Notes under the pieces: model-generated
What the model was told of the DNA's origin: nothing
The model's database searches: none
What the model saw: only the letters and a program-made list of their open reading frames with translations
Made by a program: the position numbers and the translations under genes
In this document: positions 2,971 to 26,215 of the stretch, in pieces
Numbering within the stretch: position 1 is the first letter of the stretch
Layout of the letters: each line of letters begins with the position of its first letter
IMG/VR virus record: IMGVR_UViG_3300042975_000097
Direction: 5' to 3' (one strand)
Length of the DNA stretch: 27,954 nucleotides
Source of the DNA: a virus
Taxonomy: Duplodnaviria; Heunggongvirae; Uroviricota; Caudoviricetes

Positions 2971-3105
2971 GCTCTACTTCGATTGCGCTCACACGGCAAG
3001 CGTTCGCTTATCGTATGAGCGTATTTTCTCGACGCCGTGCGAAAAACGGCGTTTTCGATGCCACGGTCGCAAAACCGTGTGATGCCGTTCTACGTGGCTT
3101 ACAGC
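2971..3105 (+). repeat. Element B copy 1 (~135-bp multi-hairpin intergenic repeat)
   Basis: Aligns along its length with 7674-7808, 10721-10855(-), 15627-15762 and 26079-26215. Confidence 0.9.
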
Positions 3106-3212
3106 GCACGGCGCCTACCCCGTGAAACCCGCTATCGAACCGGGCGCGGCGCCCGCGAGCGTCGACCATCGGTGACGTTCGCGGGCGGGATGCCGCTCGC
3201 GATCGCGTGCCC

Positions 3213-3866
3213 TCAGTGGTTCGCACCGACCCCGCAGTCGCCGGCGAGCTCCTTGACGCTGCCATCCGTGTTGTAACTCTTCACGTAGCAGCGGGCGCGC
3301 TTGTTAATGCTCTTACGCGACTTGCCGGTGTTCTTGTGTGATTTCACCGGTTTCAACGGGGTGGACGTGCCATCCGCGTTGTTCTCGATAATGCCGAATC
3401 GATTGTCATGGCTGATTAGCATACCTTTCGAGACCTCGTGCGCACCGCGCTTAACGTAGGCGATGTCATAGCGCTGGTCACCAGTGAGGTTGAAACTCGC
3501 ATCTGCGGCAATGCCGCCTGGTAGCACGATGATCTCGCCGCTCTTCGATTTCTCGGTGTCGGTTCGATGACCGTGATCATCGGTCAGCATTGTGATGCCA
3601 TACGTGGTATTCAAATCAGAGACGGCTACGTCGCGCGAGCCCCCTGAAGCAAGCAGGAGGGGTATGACTATGACTGCTGAGAAGAGAGCAATCCAAACCG
3701 CATCAATGGCACCATCATTATGACCCCAAAGGTATGATATGAGCGCCACGATGACCACGATGATCACGATGCCCGAGAGTACGAGTCCCGCTATCACAAG
3801 CCCCTGAGCGGTCGAGCCATCCACGAAATCACTGGTCGACATCGTAAGGTAATCATTCATGTTCAT
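3213..3866 (-). CDS. Two-TM membrane protein, paralogue family M, with C-terminal CYxKSYNxDGSxxELAGDC module
   Basis: Two hydrophobic stretches, then LNTTYGIT...IAYVKRG...GMLI...LKPVK, shared with 6517, 12163, 14936 and 22949. Confidence 0.75.
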   Translation of the reverse strand: MNMNDYLTMSTSDFVDGSTAQGLVIAGLVLSGIVIIVVIVALISYLWGHNDGAIDAVWIALFSAVIVIPLLLASGGSRDVAVSDLNTTYGITMLTDDHGHRTDTEKSKSGEIIVLPGGIAADASFNLTGDQRYDIAYVKRGAHEVSKGMLISHDNRFGIIENNADGTSTPLKPVKSHKNTGKSRKSINKRARCYVKSYNTDGSVKELAGDCGVGANH

Positions 3867-3872
3867 GACGGT

Positions 3873-4034
3873 TCACTTTCCTCTCACGTCGTCGGCGCAA
3901 TCGCCGGCGAGTTCCCTCACGATACCATCCGTGCTGAACGCCTTCGCCCGGAAGCCGTTGACGAACGCACCATCATCACCCTCAAACACGGCGCGCGCGT
4001 CCAATGGCACCGCGTGCTTGCTCAACTCGCTCAT
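3873..4034 (-). CDS. Small protein (53 aa) carrying the same RELAGDC C-terminal module
   Basis: GAGGGG RBS; TGGTATAAT extended -10 (TATAAT at 4069-4074); ends AKAFSTDGIVRELAGDC. Confidence 0.6.
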   Translation of the reverse strand: MSELSKHAVPLDARAVFEGDDGAFVNGFRAKAFSTDGIVRELAGDCADDVRGK

Positions 4035-4087
4035 GCTCGTTTCCCCTCTCGACTTCCCGGACGTGCCCATTATACCACAGTCGCCAT

Positions 4088-6284
4088 GGTGATTTTCTGT
4101 GGTTAGATTCTTGTACTGATAGTAATGTGTGATATTGTAATGGTATGGAAAGTATTAAGGTGCGAGCGCTTGCGGGCATGATGGGCGTTACCATGCAAAC
4201 CATACGAGCATGGATGCGAGCAGGCAGGATACCGTATCATAAATCACCGTCAGGGGGCATCTACTTCACTCCTGATGATGTGAGGCGAATCACTGGTGAT
4301 GATGGTGATGAGCCGACAGTCGAGCAACAATGGATCTATTACGTTCGATCATCCAGTGGTAACAAGGAACTCATGGACAAGCAAGCCATGATGCTTAAGG
4401 GCAAGTACCCTTCGCCTTCACGGGTAATCAAGGATAGCGCGAGCGGCATGAATGACAGCAGGAAAGGATTGAACAAGCTCATGGACCTGGCTCGGGCCCA
4501 TGAGGTCACTGACATCGCGGTCACGTACCCTGACAGGCTCAGCAGGTTCGGCGTGAAATACCTTGAGCGTTACTTCGATGCTTATAACGTTCATCTTCAT
4601 TACATGATGACTGATGACAAGCAGGACATGCACAAGGAACTCATGGATGATTTCATGGCTATCATCGCCAGCTTCGCCGGTAAGTACTATCACCTGCGCA
4701 GTACCACAAACAAGAACAAGCTCCTTGATCAAGCCAGCAGGGAAATCAACAAATGACAACTGCGTGGCGAGCATTCACCGTACCATTACGCGCGGCGTGT
4801 GACGAGCACGCCTACGATCTTATGCTACGCTTCTATCATTTCATGCAGGACGAGTACAAGCAATGCATCAATGATAAGATCCTCACAAGCAAGGCAACCA
4901 CGTACGCTCATGAGCACAAGGGCATCTTCCGCAACCGCCTCATGCGCGACACGAATCACAGGTACAAGCAATGGTCAAGCATCAGTAACAAGGCTAAGTA
5001 CTTCCGCATGCTCAGCGAGAACATACGCCACGCGATAATCTCACAGGAGGAACGAGTCCGCGTATCAACCATATGCCAACGTTATGATTACAATGCCAAC
5101 AGCATGCATGATATCCTTAACGATTGTCATGATGAACGATCATACCCAACATACGCCACGATCCGCAACATCTGCCGATCACGCAGCATACCAGCACTTA
5201 GCACGAGCACTCATATCATCCTTGACTGGTCCACGCAGGACACGCAGACAATCAGGACACATGATGATTACTATGACATCCAAGTTCTTAATGAATGGGT
5301 GACACTCCACGTTCCCATTCCATCGACAGTGCGACCAGGCACGGGGCGCGTAGCCAAGCCACGGGTAAGAATGAACGATAACGGGGAACTCATGATCGAC
5401 ATGAGTTATGAGATCACGGTGACTGCGGATCCGCTCGCTGATAGGGATGTGGTCATGGGTGTTGACCTCGGCATCGTGAAACCATTCGCAGCAGCATCAT
5501 TGAACACGCGAACAGGCGAGTACAGCACGGAACTCACGATGAGTCGAGAACTCAGCATTATAATGACAAGAAACGCTCCCTCGACAAGGAAATACGATGC
5601 CTGTACGAGAAAATCCAGCGGCTCGAACCACTGATCACACTGAGCAACGCATACCTCACGCAACACTACCATGATATCAAACGCGACCTCACCCTCAAGA
5701 AGAACAAGAGAACCCGGCTCAAGAAGCACATGCAATGGTGCATCGCCCGCGACATCACCACTCACGCAACGCACGAGCACGCCACCACCATCATCATGGA
5801 AGACCTACGATGGACACCCAACAGCAAATGGGACCACTCCATCACCCAGGAACGCATCGCCCAGACCGCTCAAGCACACAATATGCGAACCATAACCATC
5901 AACCCTAAGAACACCAGCAGAACAGACCCGTTCACCAACACTCCAACCACACCAAACGCGAACAGGACCATGATCACAACGCGCGGTCCCATCGACCGCG
6001 ATTACGCAGCAGCACTCAACATCACACAACGAACCAAGAAAACAACACGACCACTCACGCAACCAAGAGACAAGCACGCACCAACACCAAAACGACCACG
6101 AAACACCACGCGTAATCACGTCCACAAGCTCATCAAGCAAGCACGACATAACAGTAATGGCGGGTACCCCATAACCGTGAGTACATCGCATAAGGAAAGG
6201 CTAACCACCACCTTATTGAGCAATCACATTACCACCAGTCACGCGCGCACCATGGCACACCATGGCAAAACGCAACAAAACTGG
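4088..6284 (+). mobile_element. IS607-family element B (tnpA + frameshifted tnpB); ends approximate
   Basis: tnpA-tnpB with ATGA overlap; left end inferred from GGTGA, as at the start of element A; right end inferred at GG 6283-6284 (alternative GG 6289-6290); AT-richer than flanks. Confidence 0.75.
4145..4756 (+). CDS. tnpA: IS607-family serine transposase (MerR-like HTH + serine recombinase)
   Basis: N-terminal HTH (GVTMQTIRAW), YVRSSS catalytic motif, DSASGMNDSRKGL, DRLSRFG, ELMDDFMAIIASFAGKYY. Confidence 0.92.
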   Translation: MESIKVRALAGMMGVTMQTIRAWMRAGRIPYHKSPSGGIYFTPDDVRRITGDDGDEPTVEQQWIYYVRSSSGNKELMDKQAMMLKGKYPSPSRVIKDSASGMNDSRKGLNKLMDLARAHEVTDIAVTYPDRLSRFGVKYLERYFDAYNVHLHYMMTDDKQDMHKELMDDFMAIIASFAGKYYHLRSTTNKNKLLDQASREINK

Positions 6285-6287
6285 TAA
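4753..6287 (+). pseudogene. tnpB: TnpB RNA-guided nuclease with a 1-nt frameshift near 5556
   Basis: RuvC-I VMGVDLG in frame 1; RuvC-II IIMEDL and RuvC-III DRDYAAALNI in frame 3; frame 3 is open from about 5556 (HYNDKKRSLDKEIRCL...) to 6287. Confidence 0.85.
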
Positions 6288-6516
6288 CGGTCAACGGTCG
6301 TCAACGTCACCCGCAATCGCCGACGATGCTGACGGTGCCATCGGCGTTCGCGGAACCACGGCAGGCGCCACGCCGCGCAGACGGGTCCGACCGGCCGCGC
6401 TCGACGTTCGATGGCGGCGTCGACGATGGTTCACGCTTCGCCGCCGTGCGCCTGCGGTCGGCGGGCGTCGCCGTCACGGCCTCGGTGTGTTCGGTGGTGG
6501 TCGCGCGAGCCGCAGC

Positions 6517-7272
6517 CTATTTCAATACTGGAGTAAGCCGTGTTCCTTTTCCTGATCCTGATAGCTGATACAGCGATGCATGGCCATCGATGATAAGTAT
6601 CATTCCATCATACATGGAGGTTCCCTTAACATATTTCACATCGAAATATTGGTCGCCATTACGGGGATATACCGATGTCGCAGCATCAGGAGACAGTGGT
6701 ATGAGGTTAGACACATGGTTATCACGCGCAATGTCATCAAATGGAATATTGTAGACCCCATCTTTTTCCTGCAACTTCGTGTGCTTCACCAGCGTATTTT
6801 CATCATGATGATTACTGCCGAGTACTGGTTTTATGGCTGTTTTCCCTGAATCGGTATCAAACAATCCCGCCTTGCCGTTCTCTATAAGGATGATGCCGTC
6901 GTTCATCACGCCATCCTTTACATATGTTACGTGGTTCAATTCGTTCTTCCTCAAAATAATGCGGTCATGATCTGGACTGAGCGATGCTATGAGTACAGCA
7001 CCAGATGATTTTTTGAGCGACGATGTGTTAATGTATGCGTTTGTAGGCTTTGATGTAAATGCCTGGAACGCAAAGGCAGCGATAACAACAACCACAAATG
7101 ATGAAACTATAATGTTATATATTTTTCTGCCTATAGAGACTTCCGGGAGGCATACAACGCATAAGATAACGAATCCTATGGCAAAGGAAGTGATGATAAG
7201 TATCGTACGGATGGCGGATGTATGGTCAGTGTGCATAATGGGAACCGTATAGTTGGATGCAGCAAGTATCAT
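6517..7272 (-). CDS. Two-TM membrane protein of family M with two tandem extracellular domains; AT-rich gene
   Basis: Two TM segments, then two copies of VxYVK.G...DG.ILI..G.A.L(F/Y)......(I/L).PV; TGATACTAT extended -10-like site at about 7320-7328. Confidence 0.75.
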   Translation of the reverse strand: MILAASNYTVPIMHTDHTSAIRTILIITSFAIGFVILCVVCLPEVSIGRKIYNIIVSSFVVVVIAAFAFQAFTSKPTNAYINTSSLKKSSGAVLIASLSPDHDRIILRKNELNHVTYVKDGVMNDGIILIENGKAGLFDTDSGKTAIKPVLGSNHHDENTLVKHTKLQEKDGVYNIPFDDIARDNHVSNLIPLSPDAATSVYPRNGDQYFDVKYVKGTSMYDGMILIIDGHASLYQLSGSGKGTRLTPVLK

Positions 7273-7371
7273 GTTTACTCCTTAAAGATTATTCGGCTTG
7301 AATGCCGATACTGCTATCCATAGTATCACAGTGGTGGCGGCTTGTCGGAAGTCTGCGGGTGGCTGACCGCC

Positions 7372-7406
7372 GCTATACCTGATAGCTTTCACCTTTAACA
7401 CGATTC
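7372..7406 (+). repeat. Motif A copy 1 (35 bp)
   Basis: gctatacctgatagctttcacctttaacacgattc. Confidence 0.9.
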
Positions 7407-7507
7407 TGAGGGGGTTGGGCGTGGATTCGCCGCCGTGGGTGATGACATGTGATGGCTCGTCGCCCTCACCGTGATGTCGTGGTCGGGTTCGCTTCGCCGT
7501 GGTCGGC

Positions 7508-7542
7508 GCTATACCTGATAGCTTCCACCTTTAACGCGATTC
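7508..7542 (+). repeat. Motif A copy 2
   Basis: gctatacctgatagcttccacctttaacgcgattc; starts 136 bp after copy 1. Confidence 0.9.
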
Positions 7543-7673
7543 TGGGGGTGCCAATGGATTCGCTGGCGGCATGACCGGCCGCCGGGAACAGACCGGTCAT
7601 GCCCTTGCCCCCATGACCGGTATCATCGCCAGCGATAGTCGACGAATCATGATTCTCATGACGTCCCGACATC

Positions 7674-7808
7674 GCTCTACGTCGATTACGATCACACGGC
7701 AAGCGTTCGCTTATCGTATGAGCGTAATTTCCAGATGGCGTGCGAAAAACGGCGTTTTCGATGCCACGGTCACAAAACCGTGATTCCCGGTTCTACGTGG
7801 CTCTCAGC
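7674..7808 (+). repeat. Element B copy 2
   Basis: Full-length alignment to copy 1. Confidence 0.9.
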
Positions 7809-7820
7809 CCGCGATCGTCA

Positions 7821-8174
7821 TCACCGGGCGTACCCGCCGTTCACGTCGGCGGTGAAGAATTGCGTGTGCCAGTCGACCGCGATGGCGGTGATGGGACGCG
7901 CGGCCGGATCGAACGTCGGGAGCCGCCTGAACGCCCACGCACCCGATCCGATCGACTCGTCCGTCTCGCGCTCCAGCCATGTGCCGTCCGTGAACGTGAT
8001 CACCAGGTCCCCGGCGATCGGCGCGTACTCGTCGATGTCGCGGGCCAGCGCTGCGAATCCGTCGAAGTCAGTGCGGAACAACCCGTCATCTGAGCCGACC
8101 GCCGCGACGTCATCGCGCGTGTGCCCGCTGTACCCGATGTCGTCTAGCGTCGCCTTCAGAAGATTGTCATTCAT
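7821..8174 (-). CDS. Phage-like hypothetical protein (117 aa)
   Basis: NLLKATL...VGSD...IAGDLVITFTDGTWLER resembles a common phage hypothetical family; AAGGGA RBS; strong upstream promoter. Confidence 0.7.
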   Translation of the reverse strand: MNDNLLKATLDDIGYSGHTRDDVAAVGSDDGLFRTDFDGFAALARDIDEYAPIAGDLVITFTDGTWLERETDESIGSGAWAFRRLPTFDPAARPITAIAVDWHTQFFTADVNGGYAR

Positions 8175-8217
8175 GTCCCTTACCCCCATGTCCATTCTGA
8201 TAGTGTACTCGCCATCG

Positions 8218-8247
8218 AGTATAACGGAGGACGGCGTCCGATGTCAA
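8218..8247 (-). promoter_or_regulatory. Consensus sigma70-type promoter TTGACA-N18-TATACT
   Basis: Minus strand: TTGACA 8247-8242, TATACT 8223-8218. Confidence 0.7.
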
Positions 8248-8300
8248 GCCCGGCGCCGGGGCTACGGACGAGAGCATGACTCGCTTCGTCCTTGGCCGGC

Positions 8301-8335
8301 GCTATACCTGATAGCTTCCACCCTTAACGCGATTC
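8301..8335 (+). repeat. Motif A copy 3
   Basis: gctatacctgatagcttccacccttaacgcgattc. Confidence 0.9.
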
Positions 8336-8447
8336 CGAGGGGCTGGACTCGTGGGCCTTCATGGAGGGGTATGCCGAGCATGTCTTGGTGACAGTTGCGT
8401 GATATTATTATGATTGGTGATATTATATCATGTGGTCAGGGGGCGTG

Positions 8448-9059
8448 ATGATTCAGATTGGTAAGGCGGCGCGGATACTGGGCGTGACGCCGCAGACGGT
8501 TCGCGCGTACGTGAGGGCGGGTAAGCTTCGCGCGACCGTGAATGGTAGTGGGAGGTTCCTGTTCGATGAGCAGGATTGTTACGATTACACTGGTCGTAGT
8601 AAGGCGGAGTGTGAGCACCGGGTTGTCTTCTACGTGAGGTCGTCGAACGGTCAAGAGGCGTCGATGCGATCGCAGGTCGACTTGCTCACGGCGAGGTACG
8701 GCGCGCCGTTCAAAGTCTACAGGGACGCGTCATCAGGACTTAACGAGAACCGGCGCGGGCTGGCGGCACTCATACGGGACATCACCGATGATGACATCAG
8801 CACCGTGTGCGTGACGCACAAGGACCGGCTCACCCGATTCGGGTTCCATTACCTCGAACTCCTGTTCAAGGAGCACGGCACCACCGTCAACGTGCTATCA
8901 TCATCCTCGAAGTCATTACAAGAGGAACTCATGCAGGACTTCATGAGACTGGTAGCATCGTTCGCCGGTAGGTTCTACCGGATGCGCGGGTACGAGCAGC
9001 AGGAGAGACTGCTGCATGACGCGGAGAACGTCATAGAAGAGCGACGGCATGATAAGTAA
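8448..9059 (+). CDS. tnpA: IS607-family serine transposase (ORF extends to alternative start 8430)
   Basis: MIQIGKAARILGVTPQTVRAY HTH, YVRSS, DASSGLNENRRGL, DRLTRFG, EELMQDFM.L.ASFAGRFY. Confidence 0.93.
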   Translation: MIQIGKAARILGVTPQTVRAYVRAGKLRATVNGSGRFLFDEQDCYDYTGRSKAECEHRVVFYVRSSNGQEASMRSQVDLLTARYGAPFKVYRDASSGLNENRRGLAALIRDITDDDISTVCVTHKDRLTRFGFHYLELLFKEHGTTVNVLSSSSKSLQEELMQDFMRLVASFAGRFYRMRGYEQQERLLHDAENVIEERRHDK

Positions 9060-10473
9060 GGGCTGCCGCCTCAGACTCAAGGCCGCGTTCACTAGACGGC
9101 GCGGCGCCGAACCGGAGCGTATTAGCACCGGTGAGGCCGAGGATGCCTTTAAACGCCTGATCGAGTACGTGCGGGGTCGTGTCAGCATTGAGCTTGATTA
9201 TGCTCACATCCTTGCGAACAAGCGCGCCCTTGACCGGTTGGACGGCAAGCGCTTGAAGCCAGCGGAGGCGGCCCGTCAGGCGGGCATCCGCATAAGCGGG
9301 ATACCGGGCACCATCCTGAGCGGGTCAAGGGTGGAGAAGCTCATCACCGAGCAGATCGCCGGTAAGATCGGCAAGTGGAACGGCGACCCCAGGTTCAAAC
9401 CGAACGCCGGGTACAGCATTAACCTCGGCGCCGTTGATAGGAGCATGGCGATGCTCACCGTGCGGGGCGACGAGGCATGGCTGAGTTGCAACGCGTATGA
9501 TAAGAGACTCCTATTATGCTTCAACATCCCGCGGCATCTCAGGCACGCGAGCAAGGTCTGCCTGCCAAGCGTGGCGTGGCTCCCGGCAACCGGTAGGGTA
9601 TCGTTCTCGTTCGCGTTCCAGTACGGCGCGCCGCTCCCCGCGATCAGCAGCGAGTACGTGCTCGGCGTGGACAGGGGCATACGGGAGTTCGCGACGTTCA
9701 GCGTCGCCAGGACGCGCGACGGCTCGGTCGCGTGCGCAGGGACGCTCAGCACCCGCCTGCACCAGTTGTCCGCGCGCATATCGAGAATGGAACACGAGGT
9801 AAAGTGCCTTCACCCGCTGATCGATGCTTGCATCGACCGGCGTGACTTCCCGCTGTACCACGTGCTTATGGGACAGTTGGCCGGCAAGAATCGCAAACTC
9901 ACCGAGTTGAGAGCACTGCTCTGCAAGGAATCGGCGATGGAGATCGTCGCGGTCGCTCAGCATTACGGTAACTGCATGATCATGCTTGAGGACCTATCAT
10001 GGTCGGGGAACTGGCACTCCAAGGTGCCGTTCGGCCTTTTTAAATCATGGCTCGAGTTCACCGCGGTGAAAGCGGGGACGCACGTTCAGCTTGTGAACGC
10101 GGCTTACACTTCGCATGAGTGCGCTAACTGCGGGGAGACCAGTGATTACACCCTTAACCCGGGCACGAGGGAGTTCGAGTGCCACCAGTGCGCGGCGCGC
10201 CTCGACAGGGACGTGAACGCTGCTATTAACATCGCGCGGCGCGGTATCACCCGCGCCGTGAAATCATCCGTTACCCGGGGCAAGCACACGTCCACGCCGC
10301 GCGGCCGACGGGTACTACGCAGAACCATCAAACTCGATATCATCATGCCGGTGCAGGGGACCGAGAGTCCCCACAGAGTTACACCGGGACCAGCGCACGG
10401 GGCGCCGGCCATGAGCACTGCCCATCATGACAAGGGAATCCTACGCCACAGGTTATACTACTACACTACCTAA
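9049..10473 (+). CDS. tnpB: TnpB RNA-guided nuclease (474 aa), RuvC triad intact
   Basis: VLGVDRG (RuvC-I), IMLEDL (RuvC-II), YTSHECANCG..FECHQC zinc finger, DRDVNAAINI (RuvC-III). Confidence 0.9.
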   Translation: MISKGCRLRLKAAFTRRRGAEPERISTGEAEDAFKRLIEYVRGRVSIELDYAHILANKRALDRLDGKRLKPAEAARQAGIRISGIPGTILSGSRVEKLITEQIAGKIGKWNGDPRFKPNAGYSINLGAVDRSMAMLTVRGDEAWLSCNAYDKRLLLCFNIPRHLRHASKVCLPSVAWLPATGRVSFSFAFQYGAPLPAISSEYVLGVDRGIREFATFSVARTRDGSVACAGTLSTRLHQLSARISRMEHEVKCLHPLIDACIDRRDFPLYHVLMGQLAGKNRKLTELRALLCKESAMEIVAVAQHYGNCMIMLEDLSWSGNWHSKVPFGLFKSWLEFTAVKAGTHVQLVNAAYTSHECANCGETSDYTLNPGTREFECHQCAARLDRDVNAAINIARRGITRAVKSSVTRGKHTSTPRGRRVLRRTIKLDIIMPVQGTESPHRVTPGPAHGAPAMSTAHHDKGILRHRLYYYTT

Positions 10474-10489
10474 CGCAAGATTCTACTCT
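10290..10489 (+). ncRNA. Predicted omegaRNA scaffold of element A copy 1 (5' boundary unknown)
   Basis: Position only: TnpB omegaRNAs overlap the tnpB 3' end and transposon right end; this stretch is nearly identical between both copies. Not folded or verified. Confidence 0.45.
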
Positions 10490-10554
10490 CGTACTGGTCT
10501 TGCCCTGTGGGCTCGCCATGATGCCGCTGCCGGTGGAACCGGTGGCTTCGCTTC

Positions 10555-10589
10555 GCTATACCTGATAGCTCCCTCCTTTAACGCGATTC
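10555..10589 (+). repeat. Motif A copy 4
   Basis: gctatacctgatagctccctcctttaacgcgattc. Confidence 0.9.
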
Positions 10590-10720
10590 TAGGGGGTCGG
10601 GTGGTATCTTTTGCGTATGTCTCATCATGTTCTTCATGCCGCCTATACCATCCGGGAATCATCACGACCGCGGCGAGGGGAAGAAACGGCGCGGACTATT
10701 CGCAAGATGGGAGGGCGTGT

Positions 10721-10855
10721 GCTGAGATCCACGTAGAACACGATGTCACGGTTTTGTGACCGTGGTATCGAAAACGCCGTTTTTCGCACGGCGTCGAGAA
10801 AATACGTTCATACGATAAGCGAACGCTTGCCATGTGAGCGTAATCGACGTAGGGT
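10721..10855 (-). repeat. Element B copy 3 (reverse orientation)
   Basis: Reverse complement aligns with copies 1 and 2. Confidence 0.9.
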
Positions 10856-11007
10856 GGCGGCGAGGGTCATGAGCATCGTTTCCGGCGCCGACCAGCCGCT
10901 CACTTGGCGCCGACCGGTCGCGACACGTCGGCGCCCGCGACCGGGACCCGTAGTACCATGAGAAGAGCAAGAGCGGTCGGACGATGATGAACACAGGGGG
11001 TCACAAC

Positions 11008-11386
11008 ATGGAGATGACGATGGAGGACATCATGGCGGAGGACATTAGGCTTTACGAGGCCGCCGCGATGCCCGATCGCTTCGCCGGCGACCTGCTGGCA
11101 CACGTACGCGGAGCGCGAGGCCGACTTCAATCGATGGCGCCGCCGGCATGACACGATGGTGATGACCGACGTCATCGCGCTGGCCTTCGGCCTGGACGCC
11201 GGCGATCGCGAACGGCTGCGGGCCCGGCTTGATGGCATCGACGTATACTCGGACGAGGATGTCATGTGGGTGCTCATGAACCACATGCGCCCGCGCACCA
11301 CGCCCGCTACCGAGCGGACCGACGCCGATCCGCTGGACGGGCATGGGGGTATGCCGATGGCGTCGCCCGCGGCCGACGGCCGATGA
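11008..11386 (+). pseudogene. Frameshifted hypothetical gene
   Basis: AGGGGG RBS + ATG 11008 (MEMTMEDIMAEDIRLYE..) in frame 1; WHTYAEREADFNRWRRRHD..MTDVIALAF.. continues in frame 2 from about 11095. Confidence 0.45.
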
Positions 11387-11599
11387 TGGCGGCACCGCTT
11401 ACGAACCGGCATCTACGAGTGCGCACGTGCCACAGGATCCGACCGTCCCCGCGTATGAGCGGTTGCCATAGGCGGTTCCGCGGGCGATGCCGGCCGCCCG
11501 CGCGTCGGCGCCGTGAGCACGCCCGGTCGGGGTCCGTTCGCAATCGACCGGTGATGGTGATACGCTGGGACGGTATTCATTCACTTATATGGGAGGCAT

Positions 11600-11914
11600 A
11601 TGATGACCGATGAGACGAGGAGCACGGAACCGGGGGCCAAGCGGGTTACGCGAGCGTCCAAGGACTCGAGGATCAGGGTCGTGAATCACTGGCTATCGGA
11701 TTCCGGTGATTCCGAGATCGTGCTGGTCGAACCGGTGGACAAGGGCATCGAACTGCGGAACGACCTGTTCTGGTTCGCCGATGACCAGATGCCGCGCTGG
11801 TCGCCCGGCGTCGAACTCACCGTCAGCCAGATACAGGGGCTGGAGTGCTATCGGTGGGGCACCTTCGCGTCCGTCGAGCATGACATCCCCGACGGTTTCC
11901 ACATGCCGCTCTGA
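11600..11914 (+). CDS. Hypothetical protein (104 aa)
   Basis: GGGAGG RBS immediately upstream; protein-like composition. Confidence 0.65.
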   Translation: MMTDETRSTEPGAKRVTRASKDSRIRVVNHWLSDSGDSEIVLVEPVDKGIELRNDLFWFADDQMPRWSPGVELTVSQIQGLECYRWGTFASVEHDIPDGFHMPL

Positions 11915-12034
11915 TGTGAGACCGACGTCGGTCGCCGCCAATCGATGACGATGGTAGCGGCCGTTGACGCGCGAGGCGCGTCGGGTCCCGCGGCGGGGTA
12001 TACCACTGGTGATGACGTTGAGTATGCGGTCACG
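11906..12034 (+). repeat. Duplicated ~125-bp promoter-bearing segment, copy X
   Basis: Aligns with 14740-14861; contains GGCGCGTCGGG-N13-TATACC. Confidence 0.85.
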
Positions 12035-12162
12035 GCGCGGCTCGCGCGCTTGGACGCCGCCGGCGTCGCGCCATCACCGCGCTCCGGTATTACTGGTAGA
12101 AGGAGCGTGTCAGCCGTTCGGTCGGTCACGTTCGCGTTCGCGAATCGTCAACGATAAGGAGA

Positions 12163-12771: not shown

Positions 12772-12786
12772 GGAGCGCATGTCATC

Positions 12787-12969
12787 ATGAACACGATCAT
12801 CATCGTCGCGTGGATCATCATGCCGTCGGGTCGGGGTCGGCAACGACCGCGAGCATCGGACGGGTACAAGAACACGCCGGTGTACGCGGGGGGGGGCGCG
12901 CCGCGCAGACGGCAAGCGAACGGTCGGCGGGATCGGCGCCCGCCTGCCCGGGCGTGTCGCGGACGATGA
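12787..12969 (+). pseudogene. Deleted remnant of the 14936-15580 gene
   Basis: Shares RBS/start (taaggagcgcat.tcatcatgaacacgatcatcatcg) and the block 12825-12929 = 15076-15178, but lacks the TM segment and the 3' part. Confidence 0.75.
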
Positions 12970-13024
12970 CGCTATAGAATGAGGACGCACGCCAACGCGG
13001 CGAAGAATAATACGAGGAGGAAGC

Positions 13025-13258: not shown

Positions 13259-13267
13259 GGAGGAATA

Positions 13268-13465: not shown

Positions 13466-13486
13466 TGCTGGCATACGGCATAAGGA

Positions 13487-13517: not shown

Positions 13518-13544
13518 GATGTCCACCAATGCTATTCCTTAACG

Positions 13545-15762: not shown

Positions 15763-15821
15763 GCACGGCCCGAACAGGCGGCGCGGCGTCGACGGTACGT
15801 GAGCGACCGCCAAGCACGACG

Positions 15822-16052: not shown

Positions 16053-16114
16053 TGGTGACAGTTGCGTGATATTATTATGATTAGCGATATTGTATCATGT
16101 GGTCAGGGGGCGTG

Positions 16115-16726: not shown

Positions 16727-18140
16727 GGGCTGCCGCCTCAGACTCAAGGCCGCGTTCACTAGACGACGCGGCGCCGAACCGGAGCGTATTAGCACTGGTG
16801 AGGCCGAGGATGCCTTCAAGCGCCTGATCGAGTACGTGCGGGGTCGTGTCAGCATTGAGCTTGATTATGCTCACATCCTCGCGAACAAGCGCGCCCTCGA
16901 CCGGTTGGACGGCAAGCGCCTGAAACCAGCGGAGGCGGCCCGACAGGCGGGCATCCGCATAAGCGGGATACCGGGCACCATCCTGAGCGGGTCAAGGGTG
17001 GAGAGGCTCATCACCGAGCAGATCGCCGGTAAGATCGGCAAGTGGAACGGCGACCCCAGGTTCAAACCGAACGCCGGGTACAGCATTAACCTCGGCGCCG
17101 TTGATAGGCAGATGGCGATGCTCACCGTGAGGGGCGACGAGGCATGGCTGAGCTGCAACGCGTATGATAAGAGACTCCTATTATGCTTCAACATCCCGCG
17201 GCATCTCAGGCACGCGAGCAAGGTCTGCCTGCCAAGCGTGACGTGGCGCCCGTCAACCGGTAGGGTATCGTTCTCGTTCGCGTTCCAGTACGGCGCGCCG
17301 CTCCCCGCGATCAGTAGCGAGTACGTGCTCGGCGTGGACAGGGGCATACGGGAGTTCGCGACGTTCAGCGTCACCAGGACGCGCGATGGCTCGGTCGCGT
17401 GCGCAGGGACGCTCAGCACCCGCCTGCACCAGTTGTCCGCGCGCATATCGAGAATGGAACACGAGGTCAAGTGCCTTCACCCGCTGATCGATGCTTGCAT
17501 CGACCGGCGTGACTTCCCGCGGTACCAAGTGCTTATGGGACAGTTGACCGGCAAGAGGCGTAAACTCACCGCGTTGAGAGCACTGCTCTGCAAGGAATCG
17601 GCGATGGAGATCGTCGCGGTCGCCCAGCATTACGGTAACTGCATGATCATGCTTGAGGACCTATCATGGTCGGGGAACTGGCACTCCAAGGTGCCGTTCG
17701 GCCTTTTTAAATCATGGCTCGAGTTCACCGCGGTGAAAGCGGGGACGCACGTTCAGCTTGTGAACGCGGCTTACACTTCGCGTGAGTGCGCTAACTGCGG
17801 GGAGACCAGTGATTACACCCTTAACCCGGGCACGAGGGAGTTCGAGTGCCACCAGTGCGCGGCGCGCCTCGACAGGGACGTGAACGCTGCTATTAACATC
17901 GCGCGGCGCGGTATCACCCGCGCCGTGAAATCATCCGTTACCCGGGGCAAGCACACGTCCACGCCGCGCGGCCGACGGGTACTACGCAGAACCATCAAAC
18001 TCGATATCATCATGCCGGTGCAGGGGACCGAGAGTCCCCACAGAGTTACACCGGGACCAGCGCACGGGGCGCCGGCCATGAGCACTGCCCATCATGACCA
18101 AGGAATCCTACGCCACAGGTTATACTACTACACTACCTAA
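16716..18140 (+). CDS. tnpB: TnpB RNA-guided nuclease (474 aa), RuvC triad intact
   Basis: Near-identical to 9049-10473; D-E-D residues and zinc finger retained. Confidence 0.9.
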   Translation: MISKGCRLRLKAAFTRRRGAEPERISTGEAEDAFKRLIEYVRGRVSIELDYAHILANKRALDRLDGKRLKPAEAARQAGIRISGIPGTILSGSRVERLITEQIAGKIGKWNGDPRFKPNAGYSINLGAVDRQMAMLTVRGDEAWLSCNAYDKRLLLCFNIPRHLRHASKVCLPSVTWRPSTGRVSFSFAFQYGAPLPAISSEYVLGVDRGIREFATFSVTRTRDGSVACAGTLSTRLHQLSARISRMEHEVKCLHPLIDACIDRRDFPRYQVLMGQLTGKRRKLTALRALLCKESAMEIVAVAQHYGNCMIMLEDLSWSGNWHSKVPFGLFKSWLEFTAVKAGTHVQLVNAAYTSRECANCGETSDYTLNPGTREFECHQCAARLDRDVNAAINIARRGITRAVKSSVTRGKHTSTPRGRRVLRRTIKLDIIMPVQGTESPHRVTPGPAHGAPAMSTAHHDQGILRHRLYYYTT

Positions 18141-18155
18141 CGCAAGATTCTACTC

Positions 18156-18611
18156 TTTCACGAACTCCGGGGTGGTGAGCAGGTTGAGCATGCCGGCCTG
18201 CTCCATGTACTCGGCGAGCGTCACCTGATAACCGGCGGCATCGAACAGTTTCAGCGTGGCGGTCATATCGTGGTTCTCCGCCGTGATGGTGAGCTCCGCA
18301 TACCCGTTATCATTGTCCGAGTACGTGATCACGTCATTCATGGTCTCGTGGTGGTTGTCGTTTCCCGTTCCCGTGAGATTGCGAGTACCGTCAACCGATG
18401 CCGCCAGCATGGCGTCGATGAAGTCCTGCGGGGACGGGGCGTCATACGCCCACATCTGAGAACCAGCAGACCGTGCGAGGCCGAGCAGGTCGAGCAGCAT
18501 GTTCGGACCGTAGCCCCACTGGTAGTGGATGGAGAACGCCGCGACCTCGGTGGTCTTGCCGTTCTTGCCGATGCTGTTGAACCTGACGAGTGCCTGTGTG
18601 CGCTGACCCAT
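18156..18611 (-). pseudogene. 5' part (152 codons) of the interrupted phage-like gene (MGQRTQ..HYQWGYG..)
   Basis: GGGAG RBS; motif-C promoter at 18654-18683; now terminates at a TAG inside the IS right end. Confidence 0.75.
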
Positions 18612-22186: not shown

Positions 22187-22187
22187 G

Positions 22188-22669: not shown

Positions 22670-22942
22670 TTACGCCGGCGCCGGCGTAAGTGTGGCATCC
22701 GAATCCAAGTCGATGGCGTCAAGTGATGTGCGCAGCCGCTCGCGGCCGCGCTGAGAGCCACGTAGGCGCCGTTCGCGGCTTCGGATCGGTTCAAGGAGGC
22801 TGCTCACGATTCCTACCACGATAAGCGCGGCGCTCATTCCCATGGGCAACGCGAGGAGAATCATCGCCATGATGCCACCCACGCCGGTACTCCGTATGCT
22901 ATCCAGTGGAATCATGTATTTGTCAATGCCGCTCATGCTCAC
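22670..22942 (-). pseudogene. Truncated family-M paralogue (first TM only)
   Basis: MS.SGIDKYMIPLDSIRS.GVGGIMA.ILLAL matches the adjacent gene's N-terminus; similarity is lost near 22790, next to a 16-nt element-B end remnant (22750-22765). Confidence 0.7.
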
Positions 22943-22948
22943 GACGAT

Positions 22949-23473
22949 TCACTGTGCCCTCACGTCCGCGTGCGAGTCCGAGCCCGTTGTCTTCGACGTG
23001 GTTGGCGTGGCGCTCGCTGATCTCGGCTTCACCGGGGTGAGTTTGTCACCCTTTCCCGCGAACAGACCGACCTTCCCGTCCTTGATGAGCATCGTGCCGT
23101 TGACCAGTGCTCCATCGTGGAGATAACTCACGCGGTGCGTTTCTATGCCGTCCTGCTTATCGGTGTATTCCATTGACGTCACGGTGATGCCGTACTCGTT
23201 GTTGATCTTTGATGTATCGAAGTTCTTTTCAAGACCGGTATGGGCCATCAAGCAGTACGCGATGGCCGCCGTGATAATCGCCGCAGTCACTGCTGCTGTT
23301 GTGGCAGTGGCACCAGCGTGTGGGCGGACAGTGGTGGCAAATACGGCCACGCGCACGATAAGCGCGACAAACACCCCGATGGCCAGCGCGAGGACAATTA
23401 TCGCCATGATGCCACCCACGCTGACGCTCCGTATGCTATCCAGCGGGATCATATGCTTGTCAATGCCGTTCAT
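22949..23473 (-). CDS. Two-TM membrane protein, family M (174 aa)
   Basis: AAGGAG RBS; highly similar to 12163-12771 but lacks the Cys module. Confidence 0.8.
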   Translation of the reverse strand: MNGIDKHMIPLDSIRSVSVGGIMAIIVLALAIGVFVALIVRVAVFATTVRPHAGATATTAAVTAAIITAAIAYCLMAHTGLEKNFDTSKINNEYGITVTSMEYTDKQDGIETHRVSYLHDGALVNGTMLIKDGKVGLFAGKGDKLTPVKPRSASATPTTSKTTGSDSHADVRAQ

Positions 23474-23614
23474 GCTCGTTCTCCTTATCGTTGACGATCC
23501 GCGAACGTGACAGTGACCGCCCGAACGGCTGGCACGCTCCTTCTGCCAGTATACCGGAGCGCGGTGATGGCATGTCGACAACGGCGTCCGCGTGGGCGAG
23601 CGACCGCCGGCGAG

Positions 23615-23806: not shown

Positions 23807-24385
23807 CTAGCGCGCGGCCGTGTCCATCACGTAGCCGCCTGACGCCATGAGCGCGCCACAGGTCGGCGAACGATACCCATCGACGATGGCGGGACCGGCC
23901 AGCATGCCGCGCCGGAGCATGTCGACGGCGACTTCATCGTGCGGGCGGTTCATGTCGATCATCCCCGTGAGCGCAGACAACGCCAGTATGCCGCGAGTCA
24001 CCGTGTCCGTGGCGGCGATGCCGGCCCGGCATTCATCGGGAATCACGGTCATGGCCTCGCAGTCGAGACCGAGGAAGTCCAGTGGCCGGCTGAGGCCGTC
24101 GGCGATCCAGTCGGCGTAGCCGAGCTCAGTGTCCCCGTTCGCCACTTCGTAACGCCAATCGTCATGAGACGTCGAATCATGCTCGGCTTCCTCGGCGAGC
24201 GCGGCGATCTCATCATGACTGTACACGCGGTGTATGGTCATCGTCGTCGAGCGCGGGCCGTCGGCGTGGTCGAGCGGGGTAACCAGCGTGAGCGCGTCCC
24301 CCTGTTTCGAGAAGCCGAGGAACGCCGTGGCCACGCCCTCATCGTCATCGTCCGTTGCCGTTGTCATGCTGTCATCACTGGTCAT
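23807..24385 (-). CDS. Hypothetical protein (192 aa), probably leaderless
   Basis: TATCAT-GGTGCCC-ATG; contains DDWRYEVANGDTELGYADW, which I recall from phage/plasmid hypotheticals. Confidence 0.65.
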   Translation of the reverse strand: MTSDDSMTTATDDDDEGVATAFLGFSKQGDALTLVTPLDHADGPRSTTMTIHRVYSHDEIAALAEEAEHDSTSHDDWRYEVANGDTELGYADWIADGLSRPLDFLGLDCEAMTVIPDECRAGIAATDTVTRGILALSALTGMIDMNRPHDEVAVDMLRRGMLAGPAIVDGYRSPTCGALMASGGYVMDTAAR

Positions 24386-24467
24386 GGGCACCATGATACG
24401 CCATGATTCCGGCGTGGGCAAGCTGGGCGTGTGTCCGCGTGTCGTGGTTTCCTCGCGGGCTGTCGCC

Positions 24468-24502
24468 GCTGTACCTGATAGCTCCCTCCTTTAACGCGAT
24501 TT
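24468..24502 (+). repeat. Motif A copy 5
   Basis: gctgtacctgatagctccctcctttaacgcgattt. Confidence 0.9.
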
Positions 24503-24609
24503 GACGGGGTTGACACGTGGCTTTCCGTGGACGCGGAGCGAACCGGCCGCCGATACCGCTAGTTGCCATCGCCGTCGAGCATAGGCGGTCCCGCTTCGCC
24601 AGCGGTTTC

Positions 24610-24644
24610 GTTATACCTGATAGCTCCCTCCTTTAACACGATTC
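24610..24644 (+). repeat. Motif A copy 6
   Basis: gttatacctgatagctccctcctttaacacgattc; starts 142 bp after copy 5. Confidence 0.9.
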
Positions 24645-24758
24645 GAGGGGACTTCGCGACCGGTCACGCGCCACGATCCGGTCGTCTTGATTTCAACGTC
24701 GGCGCATGATCGTTCGCTTGAACGCCGTCAGCGCACGCCCGCGACACGCCGGCGATGG

Positions 24759-24840: not shown

Positions 24841-25434
24841 ATGCCGAACCACGTAACCACAGTCATCAACGCCGACCCGATCGTCATCGATTCGCTTGCG
24901 GGCGAGAACGGCCCGGTGGATTTCAACGCCGTCATCCCCATGCCAAGCACCGTGTTCCGCGGCGATCTTGACGTGGACGCCGCTCGCGACTACCCCGGTG
25001 AGGCCAACTGGTATGGCTGGTCGCGTGCGCACTGGGGAACCAAATGGAACGCGTACCAAGCCAAGCGCCTGCGTGCCGACGCGGTGCGTTTCCTCTCGGC
25101 TTGGAGCTTCCCCGAGCCGGTGCTGGCGGCGCTGTCATCGAAATTCCCCGATAAGGAGATTCGCGTGGCATACGCCGACGAGGACTTCGGCTCGAATCTC
25201 GGAATGGTCACGTACCGCGGCGGAATCGGCACCCGCAACGAGATCATCGATAATGCGCCATGGGGCGCTCGCGCTACGTTCGCGACCATGCTGACCGATG
25301 GCCTCGGCGCGGAGTCGTATTATGATGGCGATTCACTGCAAGAAGTCATTGATGACACGGCATCGTTCACCCTCGAGCACCCTGATTTCGATTTCGATGA
25401 CATCGCCAGCATGGGCGAGGAGGAGATCAACTAA
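24841..25434 (+). CDS. DUF1281/YubB-like ferredoxin-fold protein (197 aa)
   Basis: MPNHVT start, VDFNAVIPMP, NWYGW..HWGTKWNA, F.SAWS.P, YADEDFGSNLG motifs; AAGGGG RBS. Confidence 0.75.
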   Translation: MPNHVTTVINADPIVIDSLAGENGPVDFNAVIPMPSTVFRGDLDVDAARDYPGEANWYGWSRAHWGTKWNAYQAKRLRADAVRFLSAWSFPEPVLAALSSKFPDKEIRVAYADEDFGSNLGMVTYRGGIGTRNEIIDNAPWGARATFATMLTDGLGAESYYDGDSLQEVIDDTASFTLEHPDFDFDDIASMGEEEIN

Positions 25435-25569
25435 GATTAGAGTCCGCTCTTCCCGATTGAGGCGTCTGCTCCGCCGGGCGCCTCACCGCGGTCGCTGACG
25501 CGAATGGCCGTAGCCGCGCGGGCGGTGCCATGGGTTTCGTGGACGTTCCCGGCGGCGTGGGCCACGTCG

Positions 25570-25820
25570 GCGCGAAGTTCTTCCGCAACATCGGCCTCGC
25601 CGACGAGCTCGGAAGCGGCATGCGCAACCTGTACAAGTACTCGAAGCCCTACTCCGGTATGGATCCCGTCTTGGACGACGGCGATGTGTTCGAGGCATTC
25701 GTGCCCGTGCGCTGGGCGGAAGGCAGCGTTGAAGGCGTTTTACCTGCTCACGGTGAGCAGGTAAATGAGCAGGTAAATGAGCAGGTAAATTCGACCGCAC
25801 GAGAGCAGTCCTGCCGGTGA
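25570..25820 (+). pseudogene. Fragment of an AlbA_2/Schlafen-associated HATPase_c_4 ('RecG C-terminal') gene
   Basis: KFFRNIGLADELGSGMRNLYKYSK.YSG..P....GDVF...VP followed by EQVN x3; no 5' part present. Confidence 0.6.
25755..25790 (+). repeat. 12-bp tandem repeat GAGCAGGTAAAT x3
   Basis: Three exact copies encoding EQVN. Confidence 0.9.
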
Positions 25821-25877
25821 TGCTGGAGGCGCTGTGCTGTGTTGGCGGGCCAACTGATTCATCGGCGGCTTCGCTTC

Positions 25878-25912
25878 GCTATACCTGATAGCTCCCTCCT
25901 TTAACGCGATTT
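25878..25912 (+). repeat. Motif A copy 7
   Basis: gctatacctgatagctccctcctttaacgcgattt. Confidence 0.9.
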
Positions 25913-26078
25913 GAGGTGGTCGAACCATCCGCGCCGCCGGCGGCGGTCACCACGCATCACGGTCCTGCCCCCGTGGCCGGCGATGATTGTCCGCGTTCGC
26001 CGGCGTCACGTTGATGCCCATGACGGCTGCTGCCCGCATGTCTCCTCCGCGAACGCGATTCGGTCGGCGGCCGCAGGC

Positions 26079-26215
26079 GCTCTACGTCGATTACGCTCAC
26101 ACGATAAGCAGACACTTGCCGTATGAGCGTATTTTCTCGACGGCGTCGGGAAAACGGCGTTTTCGATACCACGGGGTCACAAAACCGCGTTATCGCGTTC
26201 TACGTGGCTTACAGC
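26079..26215 (+). repeat. Element B copy 5 (hairpin tip inverted)
   Basis: Aligns with the other copies; 26101-26122 is in the same flipped state as copy 4. Confidence 0.9.

What the first reader, a model, noticed from the sequence alone, without database searches (positions are those of the whole stretch)
2971..26215. Element B: ~135-bp multi-hairpin intergenic element in five copies
Seen at 2971-3105, 7674-7808, 10721-10855(-), 15627-15762 and 26079-26215, plus a 16-nt end remnant at 22750-22765(-). All copies are intergenic. Each can form a long imperfect stem (CGTCGA..TACGCTCA.ACG..AAGC-loop-GCTT..CGT.TGAGCGTA..TCGACG), a near-invariant GAAAAC-GGC-GTTTTC hairpin that competes with an alternative CGCCGT/ACGGCG stem, and in most copies a CACGGT/ACCGTG stem, bracketed by CTACGT direct repeats. 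No target duplication or cognate transposase seen; I do not recognise the family. Inference: a folded-ssDNA signal (Frpo/ssi-type single-strand promoter or priming site), a recombination site, or a new structured RNA.
Basis: partly seen in the sequence, partly recalled or inferred. Interest (0 to 1): 0.78.

Follow-up and report, generated by a model that had tools for sequence, protein, structure and literature searches.

The report
Plasmid origin-like hairpin module, multiple copies
The five roughly 145-bp repeats are real, and the same module is the best-conserved non-coding piece of small rolling-circle plasmids of Bifidobacterium, so it is most likely a DNA-level replication or maintenance signal (a single-strand-origin-type cassette) shared between a tiny plasmid and a 346-kb element, and not a new RNA.

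Summary
Observation confirmed. There are five full copies of about 145 bp (four on the + strand, one on the - strand) and one 17-nt end remnant. All lie between the best gene models. There is no match in Rfam, PLSDB, the phage records, IMG/VR or the GTDB genome contigs.

New here: the same module occurs once, in a fixed orientation about 70 nt after the rep stop, in five variants of a circular replicon (4,464 bp in the one closed variant). This replicon encodes a circovirus-like HUH/SF3 Rep; its nearest named relative is Bifidobacterium plasmid p4M. In these replicons the module is the most conserved non-coding stretch (0.90-0.93 pairwise identity, against 0.71-0.85 for rep). Four integrase-carrying relatives lack it.

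The leading-strand origin (CAGTATTAC in a stem) lies upstream of rep, so Element B is not that origin.

Across ten copies there is no compensatory change in 34 proposed pairs. Hairpin 3 is missing from the plasmid copies. Only the long hairpin is robust, and its tip shows nested inversions, a DNA-level feature.

Best reading (about 0.4): a single-strand-origin-type, folded-DNA cassette. The ICEBs1 sso1 element, which is shared with small plasmids, is the precedent. A structured RNA, a MITE, an IS607 or TnpB derivative and an Frpo promoter are not supported.

Sequence look-ups found it on no other DNA.

The parts
2968..3112 (+). Element B copy 1. Long hairpin at about 2984-3023; left direct repeat 2973-2991; right direct repeat 3089-3105. 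It lies between two minus-strand genes: 3213-3866 ends 100 nt to its right and 2504-2917 starts about 50 nt to its left.
   Evidence: 163 bits
7671..7815 (+). Element B copy 2. It lies 5 nt after the stop of minus-strand gene 7821-8195, and about 118 nt from a motif-A pair that precedes gene 6517-7272. Its right flank shares TGATGACGATCG with the small-plasmid flank. Contigs of related strains break at 7670 and 7813.
   Evidence: 158 bits
10714..10858 (-). Element B copy 3, the only inverted copy. It sits in a divergent gap between the promoter-like motif A of gene 7821-8195(-) and the plus-strand gene starting at 10980. An IS607 element (8384-10489) was later inserted into this gap.
   Evidence: 163 bits
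15624..15769 (+). Element B copy 4, the most diverged (71-79% to the others). It lies between convergent genes; 14936-15580(+) ends 43 nt to its left. It is also present in an IS-free allele (L109), so it is independent of the neighbouring IS607.
   Evidence: 134 bits
26076..26222 (+). Element B copy 5. It lies between plus-strand genes 25530-25820 and about 26285-26692, and 153 nt after a single motif A.
   Evidence: 153 bits
22750..22766 (-). Solo right-end motif CCTACGTGGCTCTCAGC, a remnant. It lies just after the point where a truncated paralogue (22795-22941) loses homology.
   Evidence: 10 bits, E 0.69

Best explanation
Element B is a portable, cis-acting DNA module tied to rolling-circle (single-stranded DNA) replication. 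It is most likely a single-strand (lagging-strand) origin type of signal.

Shown:
- In small p4M-like Bifidobacterium plasmids (4,464 bp in the one closed variant) it sits once, always in the same orientation, about 70 nt after rep, on the strand that Rep nicks and displaces.
- There it is more conserved than rep itself.
- It is present only in the variants that lack an integrase.

Inferred mechanism: when that strand is single-stranded, the imperfect hairpin of about 20 bp and the flanking conserved sequence blocks are recognised by host priming machinery (RNA polymerase or a primase/primosome). This lays down a primer for complementary-strand synthesis.

Inferred for the window: the 346-kb element acquired the cassette by recombination with such plasmids and multiplied it in intergenic gaps. 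The copies either serve the same priming role when the element is single-stranded (conjugative entry or rolling-circle phases) or persist as recombination-prone relics.
For: 1. The same 145-bp module, 71-83% identical to the window copies, lies in L121, L122, L127 (two copies) and L128/L129. Nothing else is shared with the window.
2. L128 and L129 are the same 4591-bp contig from two samples, differently permuted and with a 127-bp terminal overlap, so the molecule is a circle of 4464 bp with all genes on one strand.
3. Its 339-aa protein has rolling-circle Rep motifs (WLLTIN, HYQ, YCSK) plus Walker A and B. The nearest plasmid is p4M RepA at 28% identity. Papers call that Rep circovirus-like (PMC2702318).
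4. The nick-type origin CAGTATTAC, inside a stem and followed by GGGACA-type iterons, lies about 130 nt upstream of rep on the coding strand. It is also present in integrated relatives, and in p4M as TAGTGTTAC. B is therefore not the leading-strand origin, and its reverse-complement sense lies on the displaced strand.
5. B is the most conserved part of the plasmid segment compared (pairwise identity 0.90-0.93, against 0.71-0.85 in rep and 0.16-0.77 in the other non-coding DNA). Conservation drops sharply at its distal edge.
6. Complementary distribution: 5 of 5 integrase-less variants carry B, and 0 of 4 integrase-carrying relatives do, although their Reps are 67-84% identical.
7. Columns that vary in window copies and in plasmid copies overlap more than chance (odds ratio 4.2, p=0.003), which suggests shared constraints.
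8. Precedent: ICEBs1 sso1 lies just downstream of the relaxase gene, resembles the single-strand origins of small plasmids, works in one orientation only and is redundant with another region (PMC4595007). Single-strand origins are about 160 nt, act as folded DNA, are exchanged as cassettes and contain a recombination site (PMC5703833).
Against: - No similarity to any described single-strand origin. The RSB motif is absent from B, and the hairpin tip TAAGCG(A/T) only resembles CS-6 TAGCGT (for the motifs).
- Predicted folding shows no consistent strand asymmetry and only modest z-scores for many copies.
- In the window one of the five copies is inverted, and gene orientation around the copies is mixed. 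A strictly strand-specific role is hard to assign to all copies.
- The plasmid has a second conserved non-coding stretch (L128 1425-1500) that is shared with p4M and starts with an RSB-like TTTATGCCG. It could be the true single-strand origin, although it is not structured.
- It is not known whether the 346-kb element ever exists as single-stranded DNA.
- No experiment exists.
Confidence: 0.4

Rival explanations
1. In the 346-kb element B is mainly a selfish or neutral dispersed repeat. It would be spread by homologous or illegitimate recombination, or by an unidentified enzyme acting on its direct-repeat ends, with no role for the element. Any function is confined to the small plasmid it came from.
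For: - Discrete edges, unrelated flanks, intergenic only, plus a truncated copy (L115 16886-16978) and a 17-nt remnant.
- Window copies are far more diverged (71-89%) than plasmid copies (86-94%).
- Mixed orientation relative to genes.
- Contigs of related strains switch partners at 7670 and 7813 (short sides, so weak).
- Copy 2 keeps 12 nt of plasmid-type flank.
Against: - The same sequence blocks stay conserved in window and plasmid copies.
- No terminal inverted repeats, no target duplication and no cognate enzyme were found.
- No clean filled-versus-empty site pair was recovered for any window copy.
Confidence: 0.22
2. B is a transcription stop or insulator cassette: hairpin 1 followed by TTTTC, and a second GC stem followed by TTTTCGAT, in the + sense.
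For: - The terminator scan flags hairpin 1 plus a T-run in copies 1 and 4 on the + strand.
- Every copy is intergenic, and copies 1, 2 and 4 follow gene ends closely.
- B often lies about 115-155 nt from promoter-like motif A.
Against: - In copies 1 and 2, and in all plasmid copies, the T-run sense is antisense to the flanking genes.
- Copy 3 sits in a divergent promoter gap with no gene end to serve.
- The plasmid has a canonical hairpin plus a run of 6-7 T about 370 nt further on.
- A terminator does not explain more than 90% sequence conservation of 145 nt, including unpaired blocks.
Confidence: 0.13
3. B is a double-stranded binding platform for a plasmid- or host-encoded protein, for example a partition, copy-control, incompatibility or operator site. 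The copies on the large element would then titrate or share that protein.
For: - Conservation lies in sequence blocks, not in pairing.
- There are internal direct repeats: CTACGT.G..T twice, and AAAACGGCGTT / AAAACCGTGTT.
- A GCCGTTTTTC-type motif recurs near the plasmid operon promoter.
- The plasmid encodes small proteins with faint ribbon-helix-helix-like hits (E 0.1-0.2).
Against: - No partition ATPase or clear DNA-binding protein was identified on the plasmid.
- The strict single orientation in plasmids is not required for most binding sites.
- Nothing was tested directly.
Confidence: 0.13
4. B encodes, or is part of, a structured RNA: a small RNA, a 3'-UTR stabiliser of rep mRNA, or a cis-regulatory leader.
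For: - The reverse-complement sense folds somewhat better as RNA in the five-copy consensus (-40.8 against -33.3 kcal/mol).
- In plasmids that sense is co-transcribed with rep.
- Contigs of an RNA run include B sequence (no strand or end information).
Against: - No Rfam hit even at E<=1.
- 0 of 34 pairs show compensatory change, and 394 of 500 shuffles reach the observed covariation score.
- Hairpin 3 is paired in only 67% of cells and is absent from plasmid copies. Hairpin 2 is broken in L122 and L128 without compensation.
- Wobble and mismatch positions favour neither strand.
- No conserved promoter lies within the unit.
Confidence: 0.07

Closest known systems
Single-strand origins (sso) of rolling-circle plasmids, and sso1 of the conjugative element ICEBs1 (PMC5703833; PMC4595007)
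   Same: - Non-coding, about 150 nt, with hairpin potential.
- Sits in a rolling-circle replicon outside the nick-site origin, in a fixed orientation.
- ICEBs1 sso1 also lies just after the relaxase/Rep-type gene.
- The same cassette is shared between small plasmids and a large mobile element.
- It is dispensable for forms that persist integrated, and it is associated with recombination and cassette exchange.
   Different: - No sequence similarity to the ssoA, ssoT, ssoU, ssoW or ssoL types, and no RSB or exact CS-6 motif.
- The host is an actinobacterium and the Rep is circovirus-like.
- At least five copies in both orientations on the large element.
- Function untested.
Frpo/ssi single-stranded-DNA promoters of plasmid leading regions (PMC11541004)
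   Same: Several hairpin-forming intergenic copies lie in a region rich in methyltransferases and small orphan genes of a large mobile element. The proposed action is on single-stranded DNA.
   Different: Frpo rebuilds -35, -10 and UP elements in a long stem and is followed by genes all encoded on the transferred strand. B's stem is about 20 bp, has no hexamer pair, and its neighbouring genes point both ways.
Bifidobacterium pseudocatenulatum plasmid p4M (NC_003527.1)
   Same: - Similar size (4488 bp against 4464 bp).
- Circovirus-like Rep (28% identity).
- Stem-loop origin with a TAGTGTTAC-type nonanucleotide upstream of rep.
- Shares a motif of about 75 nt (CGTTTATGCCG...GGTCTGTTGA...CTCTAAC) downstream of rep.
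   Different: p4M has no Element B (nhmmer and covariance model). It carries an FtsK/SpoIIIE-type gene that the new plasmids lack.
Dispersed intergenic hairpin repeats and mobile regulatory cassettes (REP/BIME, SPRITE, PeSL of T4-type phages)
   Same: Short, intergenic, hairpin-bearing and multicopy. They mark points where gene cassettes are reshuffled.
   Different: B is longer, has direct-repeat ends, and is conserved as sequence blocks. It has a single-copy, position-fixed counterpart in a plasmid, where it is under strong purifying selection.

Membership tests
Single-strand origin (sso) of rolling-circle replicons | Lies in non-coding DNA of a replicon that replicates by the rolling-circle mode, separate from the nick-site (double-strand) origin | tested here: met
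   The plasmid Rep has HUH-type and Tyr motifs plus an SF3 helicase. The nonanucleotide stem-loop and iterons lie upstream of rep. B lies 70 nt downstream of rep.
Single-strand origin (sso) of rolling-circle replicons | One fixed orientation relative to leading-strand synthesis | tested here: inconclusive
   Same orientation in 5 of 5 plasmid variants. In the window the split is 4 to 1, and the replication or transfer direction is unknown.
Single-strand origin (sso) of rolling-circle replicons | Extensive intrastrand pairing of the single strand | tested here: inconclusive
   Hairpin 1 is paired in 93% of cells. Whole-element DNA-fold z-scores range from 0.0 to -4.3, with no strand preference.
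Single-strand origin (sso) of rolling-circle replicons | [quoted passage not shown] | not testable with these tools
   Needs the plasmid assays described in PMC4595007.
ssoA type | RSB motif (TTATGCCGAGAAAATTT-like) and CS-6 (TAGCGT) in the hairpin loop | tested here: not met
   TTATGCCG is absent from every B copy. The hairpin tip reads TAAGCG(A/T), not TAGCGT. Motifs as quoted in PMC4598088.
Frpo-type single-stranded-DNA promoter | -35 and -10 hexamers rebuilt about 17 bp apart in a long stem, with co-oriented genes downstream | tested here: not met
   By reading the sequence, the stem is about 20 bp and holds no hexamer pair. The promoter scan lists no site inside any of the four B copies in the scanned region 1-16000. 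Flanking genes are in mixed orientation.
Structured RNA family (Rfam or new) | Match to a curated model, or base pairs kept through compensatory changes | tested here: not met
   No Rfam hit. 0 of 34 pairs show changes on both sides, and 394 of 500 shuffles reach the observed covariation score.
MITE / non-autonomous transposon | Terminal inverted repeats and target-site duplications | tested here: not met
   The ends are imperfect direct repeats. The flanks show no duplication.
IS607 or TnpB derivative (miniature element or guide-RNA scaffold) | Ends or scaffold similar to those of the resident IS607 elements, and a fixed position and orientation at the tnpB 3' end | tested here: not met
   No similarity to the IS ends. 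Copy 4 persists in an IS-free allele. Copy 3 is antisense to tnpB and lies 225 nt beyond the IS end.
Intrinsic terminator | GC-rich hairpin followed by a U-run, downstream of and co-oriented with a gene | tested here: inconclusive
   The hairpin plus T-run exists in the + sense. That sense is antisense to the flanking genes in copies 1 and 2 and in all plasmids. Copy 3 follows no gene.

The most novel reading that the evidence does not exclude
The 346-kb element keeps several copies of the small plasmid's origin-type module as an interface between two mobile elements. The copies could be landing pads that let the plasmid form cointegrates and ride along. Alternatively they could be decoys that titrate the factor acting on the plasmid's copy, a form of incompatibility or inter-element conflict.
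Probability: 0.1. Interest if true: 0.75.

Novelty: new member of a known kind. Interest (0 to 1): 0.5.

Why it matters
- It links a giant, almost wholly uncharacterised Bifidobacterium-associated element to a family of tiny circovirus-Rep plasmids through one shared 145-bp cis element.
- It gives a concrete, testable candidate for a lagging-strand origin in actinobacterial rolling-circle plasmids. No such origin type has been catalogued for them, and it could be useful for Bifidobacterium vectors.
- If the copies on the large element are active, that would suggest the element passes through a single-stranded stage such as conjugation or rolling-circle replication. This would help decide what kind of element it is.
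- It is also a cautionary case: an apparently "multi-hairpin RNA" turns out to be conserved as DNA sequence blocks with one invertible palindrome.

Tried and rejected
- A 15-mer scan of IMG/VR gave only chance hits.
- Two stricter patterns found nothing in IMG/VR or the GTDB contigs. The first found nothing in the metagenome contigs; the second found only two records there.
- blastn of copy 1 and of 25 kb of the window against PLSDB and the phage records gave no match. The plasmid intergenic region against PLSDB also gave no match.
- No whole genome is held for the window or for the fetched loci, so no genome-wide or genus-wide scan was possible.
- Extending along the 346-kb contig returned no further DNA.
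- Searching the protein collection with a spurious peptide read through B found nothing.
- TnpB guide-RNA scaffold and IS607-derived miniature element: rejected (see membership test).
- Leading-strand (nick) origin: rejected, because the nonanucleotide stem-loop is upstream of rep and is kept by relatives that lack B.
- Pairing between the variable 8-nt stretch and the TCGACGGCG region was perfect in L128 only and is not kept in the other copies (by reading A10).
- An all-against-all column-pair scan gave only noise with 7 sequences.
- Strand asymmetry of DNA folding: none.
- Read laying: RNA-run contigs overlap B, but contigs give no strand, ends or level. Joints at B's edges have short sides (23-38 nt) and are only weak hints of extra copies in related strains.
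- p4M and the integrase-carrying relatives were searched with nhmmer and the covariance model: no B.


Full report
**What is there.** The five claimed copies align over about 145 bp with 82-85% mean column identity. A covariance model built from ten copies recovers each at 134-163 bits and finds nothing else in the window except the 17-nt remnant. The right-end motif occurs 6 times against 0.02 expected by chance, and the left-end motif 5 times against 0.00. The two ends are imperfect direct repeats (CTCTACGTCGATTAC and TTCTACGTGGCTTAC). There are no inverted termini and no target duplications. A 5'-truncated copy lies 3.9 kb beyond the window next to an N6/N4 methyltransferase gene (L115 16886-16978).

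**Setting.** The window is 99.1-99.4% identical, over the parts fetched, to the start of a 346,143-bp JGI metagenome contig. It holds two near-identical IS607-type elements (serine recombinase plus TnpB) at 8384-10489 and 16051-18156, and a third, broken one at 4089-6290. Element B is unrelated to them. The IS ends show no similarity. Copy 4 is present in an IS-free allele (L109). Copy 3 is antisense to tnpB and lies outside the IS.

**Position relative to genes.** The position of the copies is inconsistent:
- Copies 1 and 2 lie between minus-strand genes.
- Copy 3 sits in a divergent promoter gap.
- Copy 4 lies between convergent genes.
- Copy 5 lies between plus-strand genes.

**Structure.** No Rfam family matches, even at E<=1.
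- 87% of cells pair.
- None of the 34 pairs shows a change on both sides.
- 394 of 500 shuffles reach the observed covariation score.
- Helix 3 (CACGGT/ACCGTG) is paired in only 67% of cells and is absent from five copies.
- Helix 2 is broken without compensation in two copies.
- The alternative CGCCG/CGGCG stem holds in a minority.

Only the long hairpin is robust. Its asymmetric features (the loop GTTY or RAAC, a 2x2 internal loop, an outer C/A or T/G mismatch) occur in combinations that fit nested inversions bounded by successive parts of the stem. The 4-nt loop is exactly reverse-complemented between two orthologous copies, GTTT in L121 and AAAC in L122. That behaviour belongs to a DNA palindrome and says nothing for an RNA. 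Neither strand folds consistently better. Conservation lies in sequence blocks: ACGTCGA, GCTCA.ACG, TGA.CGTA, AACGGCGTTTTCGATG, TCACAAAACCG and GTTCTACGTGGCT. These are separated by variable stretches.

**The decisive lead.** One degenerate pattern hit two ENA metagenome contigs whose only similarity to the window is Element B. The gene next to it has homologues at 67-89% identity. Their contigs showed two kinds of element.

*Free, integrase-less replicons.* L128 and L129 are the same 4591-bp contig from two samples, differently permuted and with a 127-bp terminal overlap. That makes a 4464-bp circle with all genes on one strand. Its 339-aa protein carries rolling-circle Rep motifs (WLLTIN, HYQ, YCSK) and Walker A/B boxes. 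The nearest named plasmid is Bifidobacterium pseudocatenulatum p4M (RepA 28% identical), whose Rep is known as circovirus-like (PMC2702318). All five integrase-less variants (L121, L122, two in L127, L128/129) carry one Element B. It lies about 70 nt after the rep stop, with its reverse-complement sense on the coding strand.

*Integrase-carrying relatives.* Three lie among chromosomal-type genes: a B. psychraerophilum MAG contig, a 330-kb JGI contig and L126. Two short contigs, L124 and L131, show only the element itself. Their Reps are 67-84% identical, and none has Element B. The homology between L121 and L126 ends exactly at B's edge, just past the integrase stop.

**What B is not, and what remains.** The circovirus-type origin CAGTATTAC lies about 130 nt upstream of rep on the coding strand. 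It sits inside the stem AAAGTCGGG/CCCGACTTT and is followed by GGGACA-type repeats. It is found in free and integrated forms alike, and as TAGTGTTAC in p4M. So B is not the nick-site origin, and the strand displaced by Rep carries B's reverse-complement sense. Within the plasmid family B is the most conserved stretch: pairwise identity is 0.90-0.93, against 0.71-0.85 for rep and 0.16-0.77 for the other non-coding DNA, with a sharp drop at its far edge. A canonical hairpin plus T-run terminator lies about 370 nt further on, so B is not needed as the operon terminator. Columns that vary among the window copies overlap those that vary among the plasmid copies (odds ratio 4.2, p=0.003).

**Interpretation.** B is single-copy, fixed in orientation, strongly constrained and hairpin-bearing. 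It lies in a rolling-circle plasmid outside the nick origin, and it is present only in the forms that must replicate on their own. These properties fit a single-strand (lagging-strand) origin best. Such origins are about 160 nt, act as folded DNA in one orientation, are exchanged as cassettes and contain a recombination site (PMC5703833). ICEBs1 carries one, sso1, immediately after its relaxase gene. It is similar to the origins of small plasmids and is redundant with another region (PMC4595007). By analogy, the 346-kb element would have taken the cassette from such plasmids. Copy 2 even keeps 12 nt of plasmid-type flank, TGATGACGATCG.

I put this reading at about 0.4, for these reasons:
- B resembles no described single-strand origin (no RSB, no exact CS-6).
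- Folding is only moderately above background.
- One window copy is inverted.
- A second conserved plasmid stretch with an RSB-like start is a competitor, although it is unstructured.
- It is unknown whether the large element has a single-stranded phase.

The rivals are a neutral dispersed repeat on the large element (0.22), a terminator or insulator cassette (0.13), a double-stranded protein-binding site (0.13) and a structured RNA (0.07).

**Limits.** The rest of the 346-kb contig could not be read. Genome-wide copy number and strand bias, and whether the element has a relaxase or a Rep, are therefore open. The RNA evidence consists of assembled contigs only. Nothing has been tested at the bench.

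Noticed in passing
window 8384-10489 and 16051-18156; 4089-6290: There are two IS607-type elements about 98% alike (209-aa MerR/resolvase TnpA plus 474-aa TnpB). L109 is an IS-free allele of the second site. A third, diverged copy has tnpB split into two ORFs and is skipped in contigs of related strains.
   Followed up: partly
window 7357-7416, 7493-7552, 8286-8345, 10540-10599, 24453-24512, 24595-24654, 25863-25922: Motif A (GCTATACCTGATAGC...TTTAACGCGATT) occurs as pairs 136-148 bp apart. The pairs lie 30-90 nt upstream of minus-strand genes 6517-7272, 7821-8195 and 23807-24421, which looks promoter- or operator-like. IS607 copy 1 landed between the two members of one pair.
   Followed up: partly
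window 10980-11465: A 161-aa plus-strand gene is intact in the related contig L107. In the window version it is interrupted by frameshifts, either as a pseudogene or through assembly error.
   Followed up: partly
L128/L129 (4464-bp circle); L121, L122, L127: A family of small circular Bifidobacterium-associated replicons encodes a circovirus-like Rep, a prepilin-motif protein and several tiny ORFs, all on one strand. The origin CAGTATTAC sits in a stem upstream of rep and is followed by GGGACA/GGAACA repeats. L127 holds two diverged copies in tandem.
   Followed up: partly
L123, L124, L125, L126, L131: Integrase-carrying relatives of the same replicon. L123, L125 and L126 lie among chromosomal-type genes, including a B. 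psychraerophilum MAG contig. In all of them an integrase occupies the place that Element B and its neighbouring sequence hold in the free forms.
   Followed up: partly
L128 1425-1500; L130 (p4M) about 4025-4100: A motif of about 75 nt (CGTTTATGCCG...AAGGTCTGTTGA...CTCTAAC) is shared by the new replicons and p4M, although their Reps are only 28% identical. Its start equals the RSB motif of ssoA-type origins, but the stretch is not predicted to fold.
   Followed up: partly
window 12040-12657 versus 22979-23601; 12738-12929 versus 14887-15178: There are inverted and direct segmental duplications (85-96% identical) that carry paralogous small genes. The region is a reshuffled cassette zone.
   Followed up: no
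window 13545-14630(-); 27189-27929(-); 24841-25434(+): Three genes have weak or partial family matches: an RNA ligase with a PHA02142 OB-fold domain, a faint TnsA-like endonuclease N-terminal hit, and a DUF1281_C (Api92-like) protein. Most other ORFs match no Pfam family.
   Followed up: no
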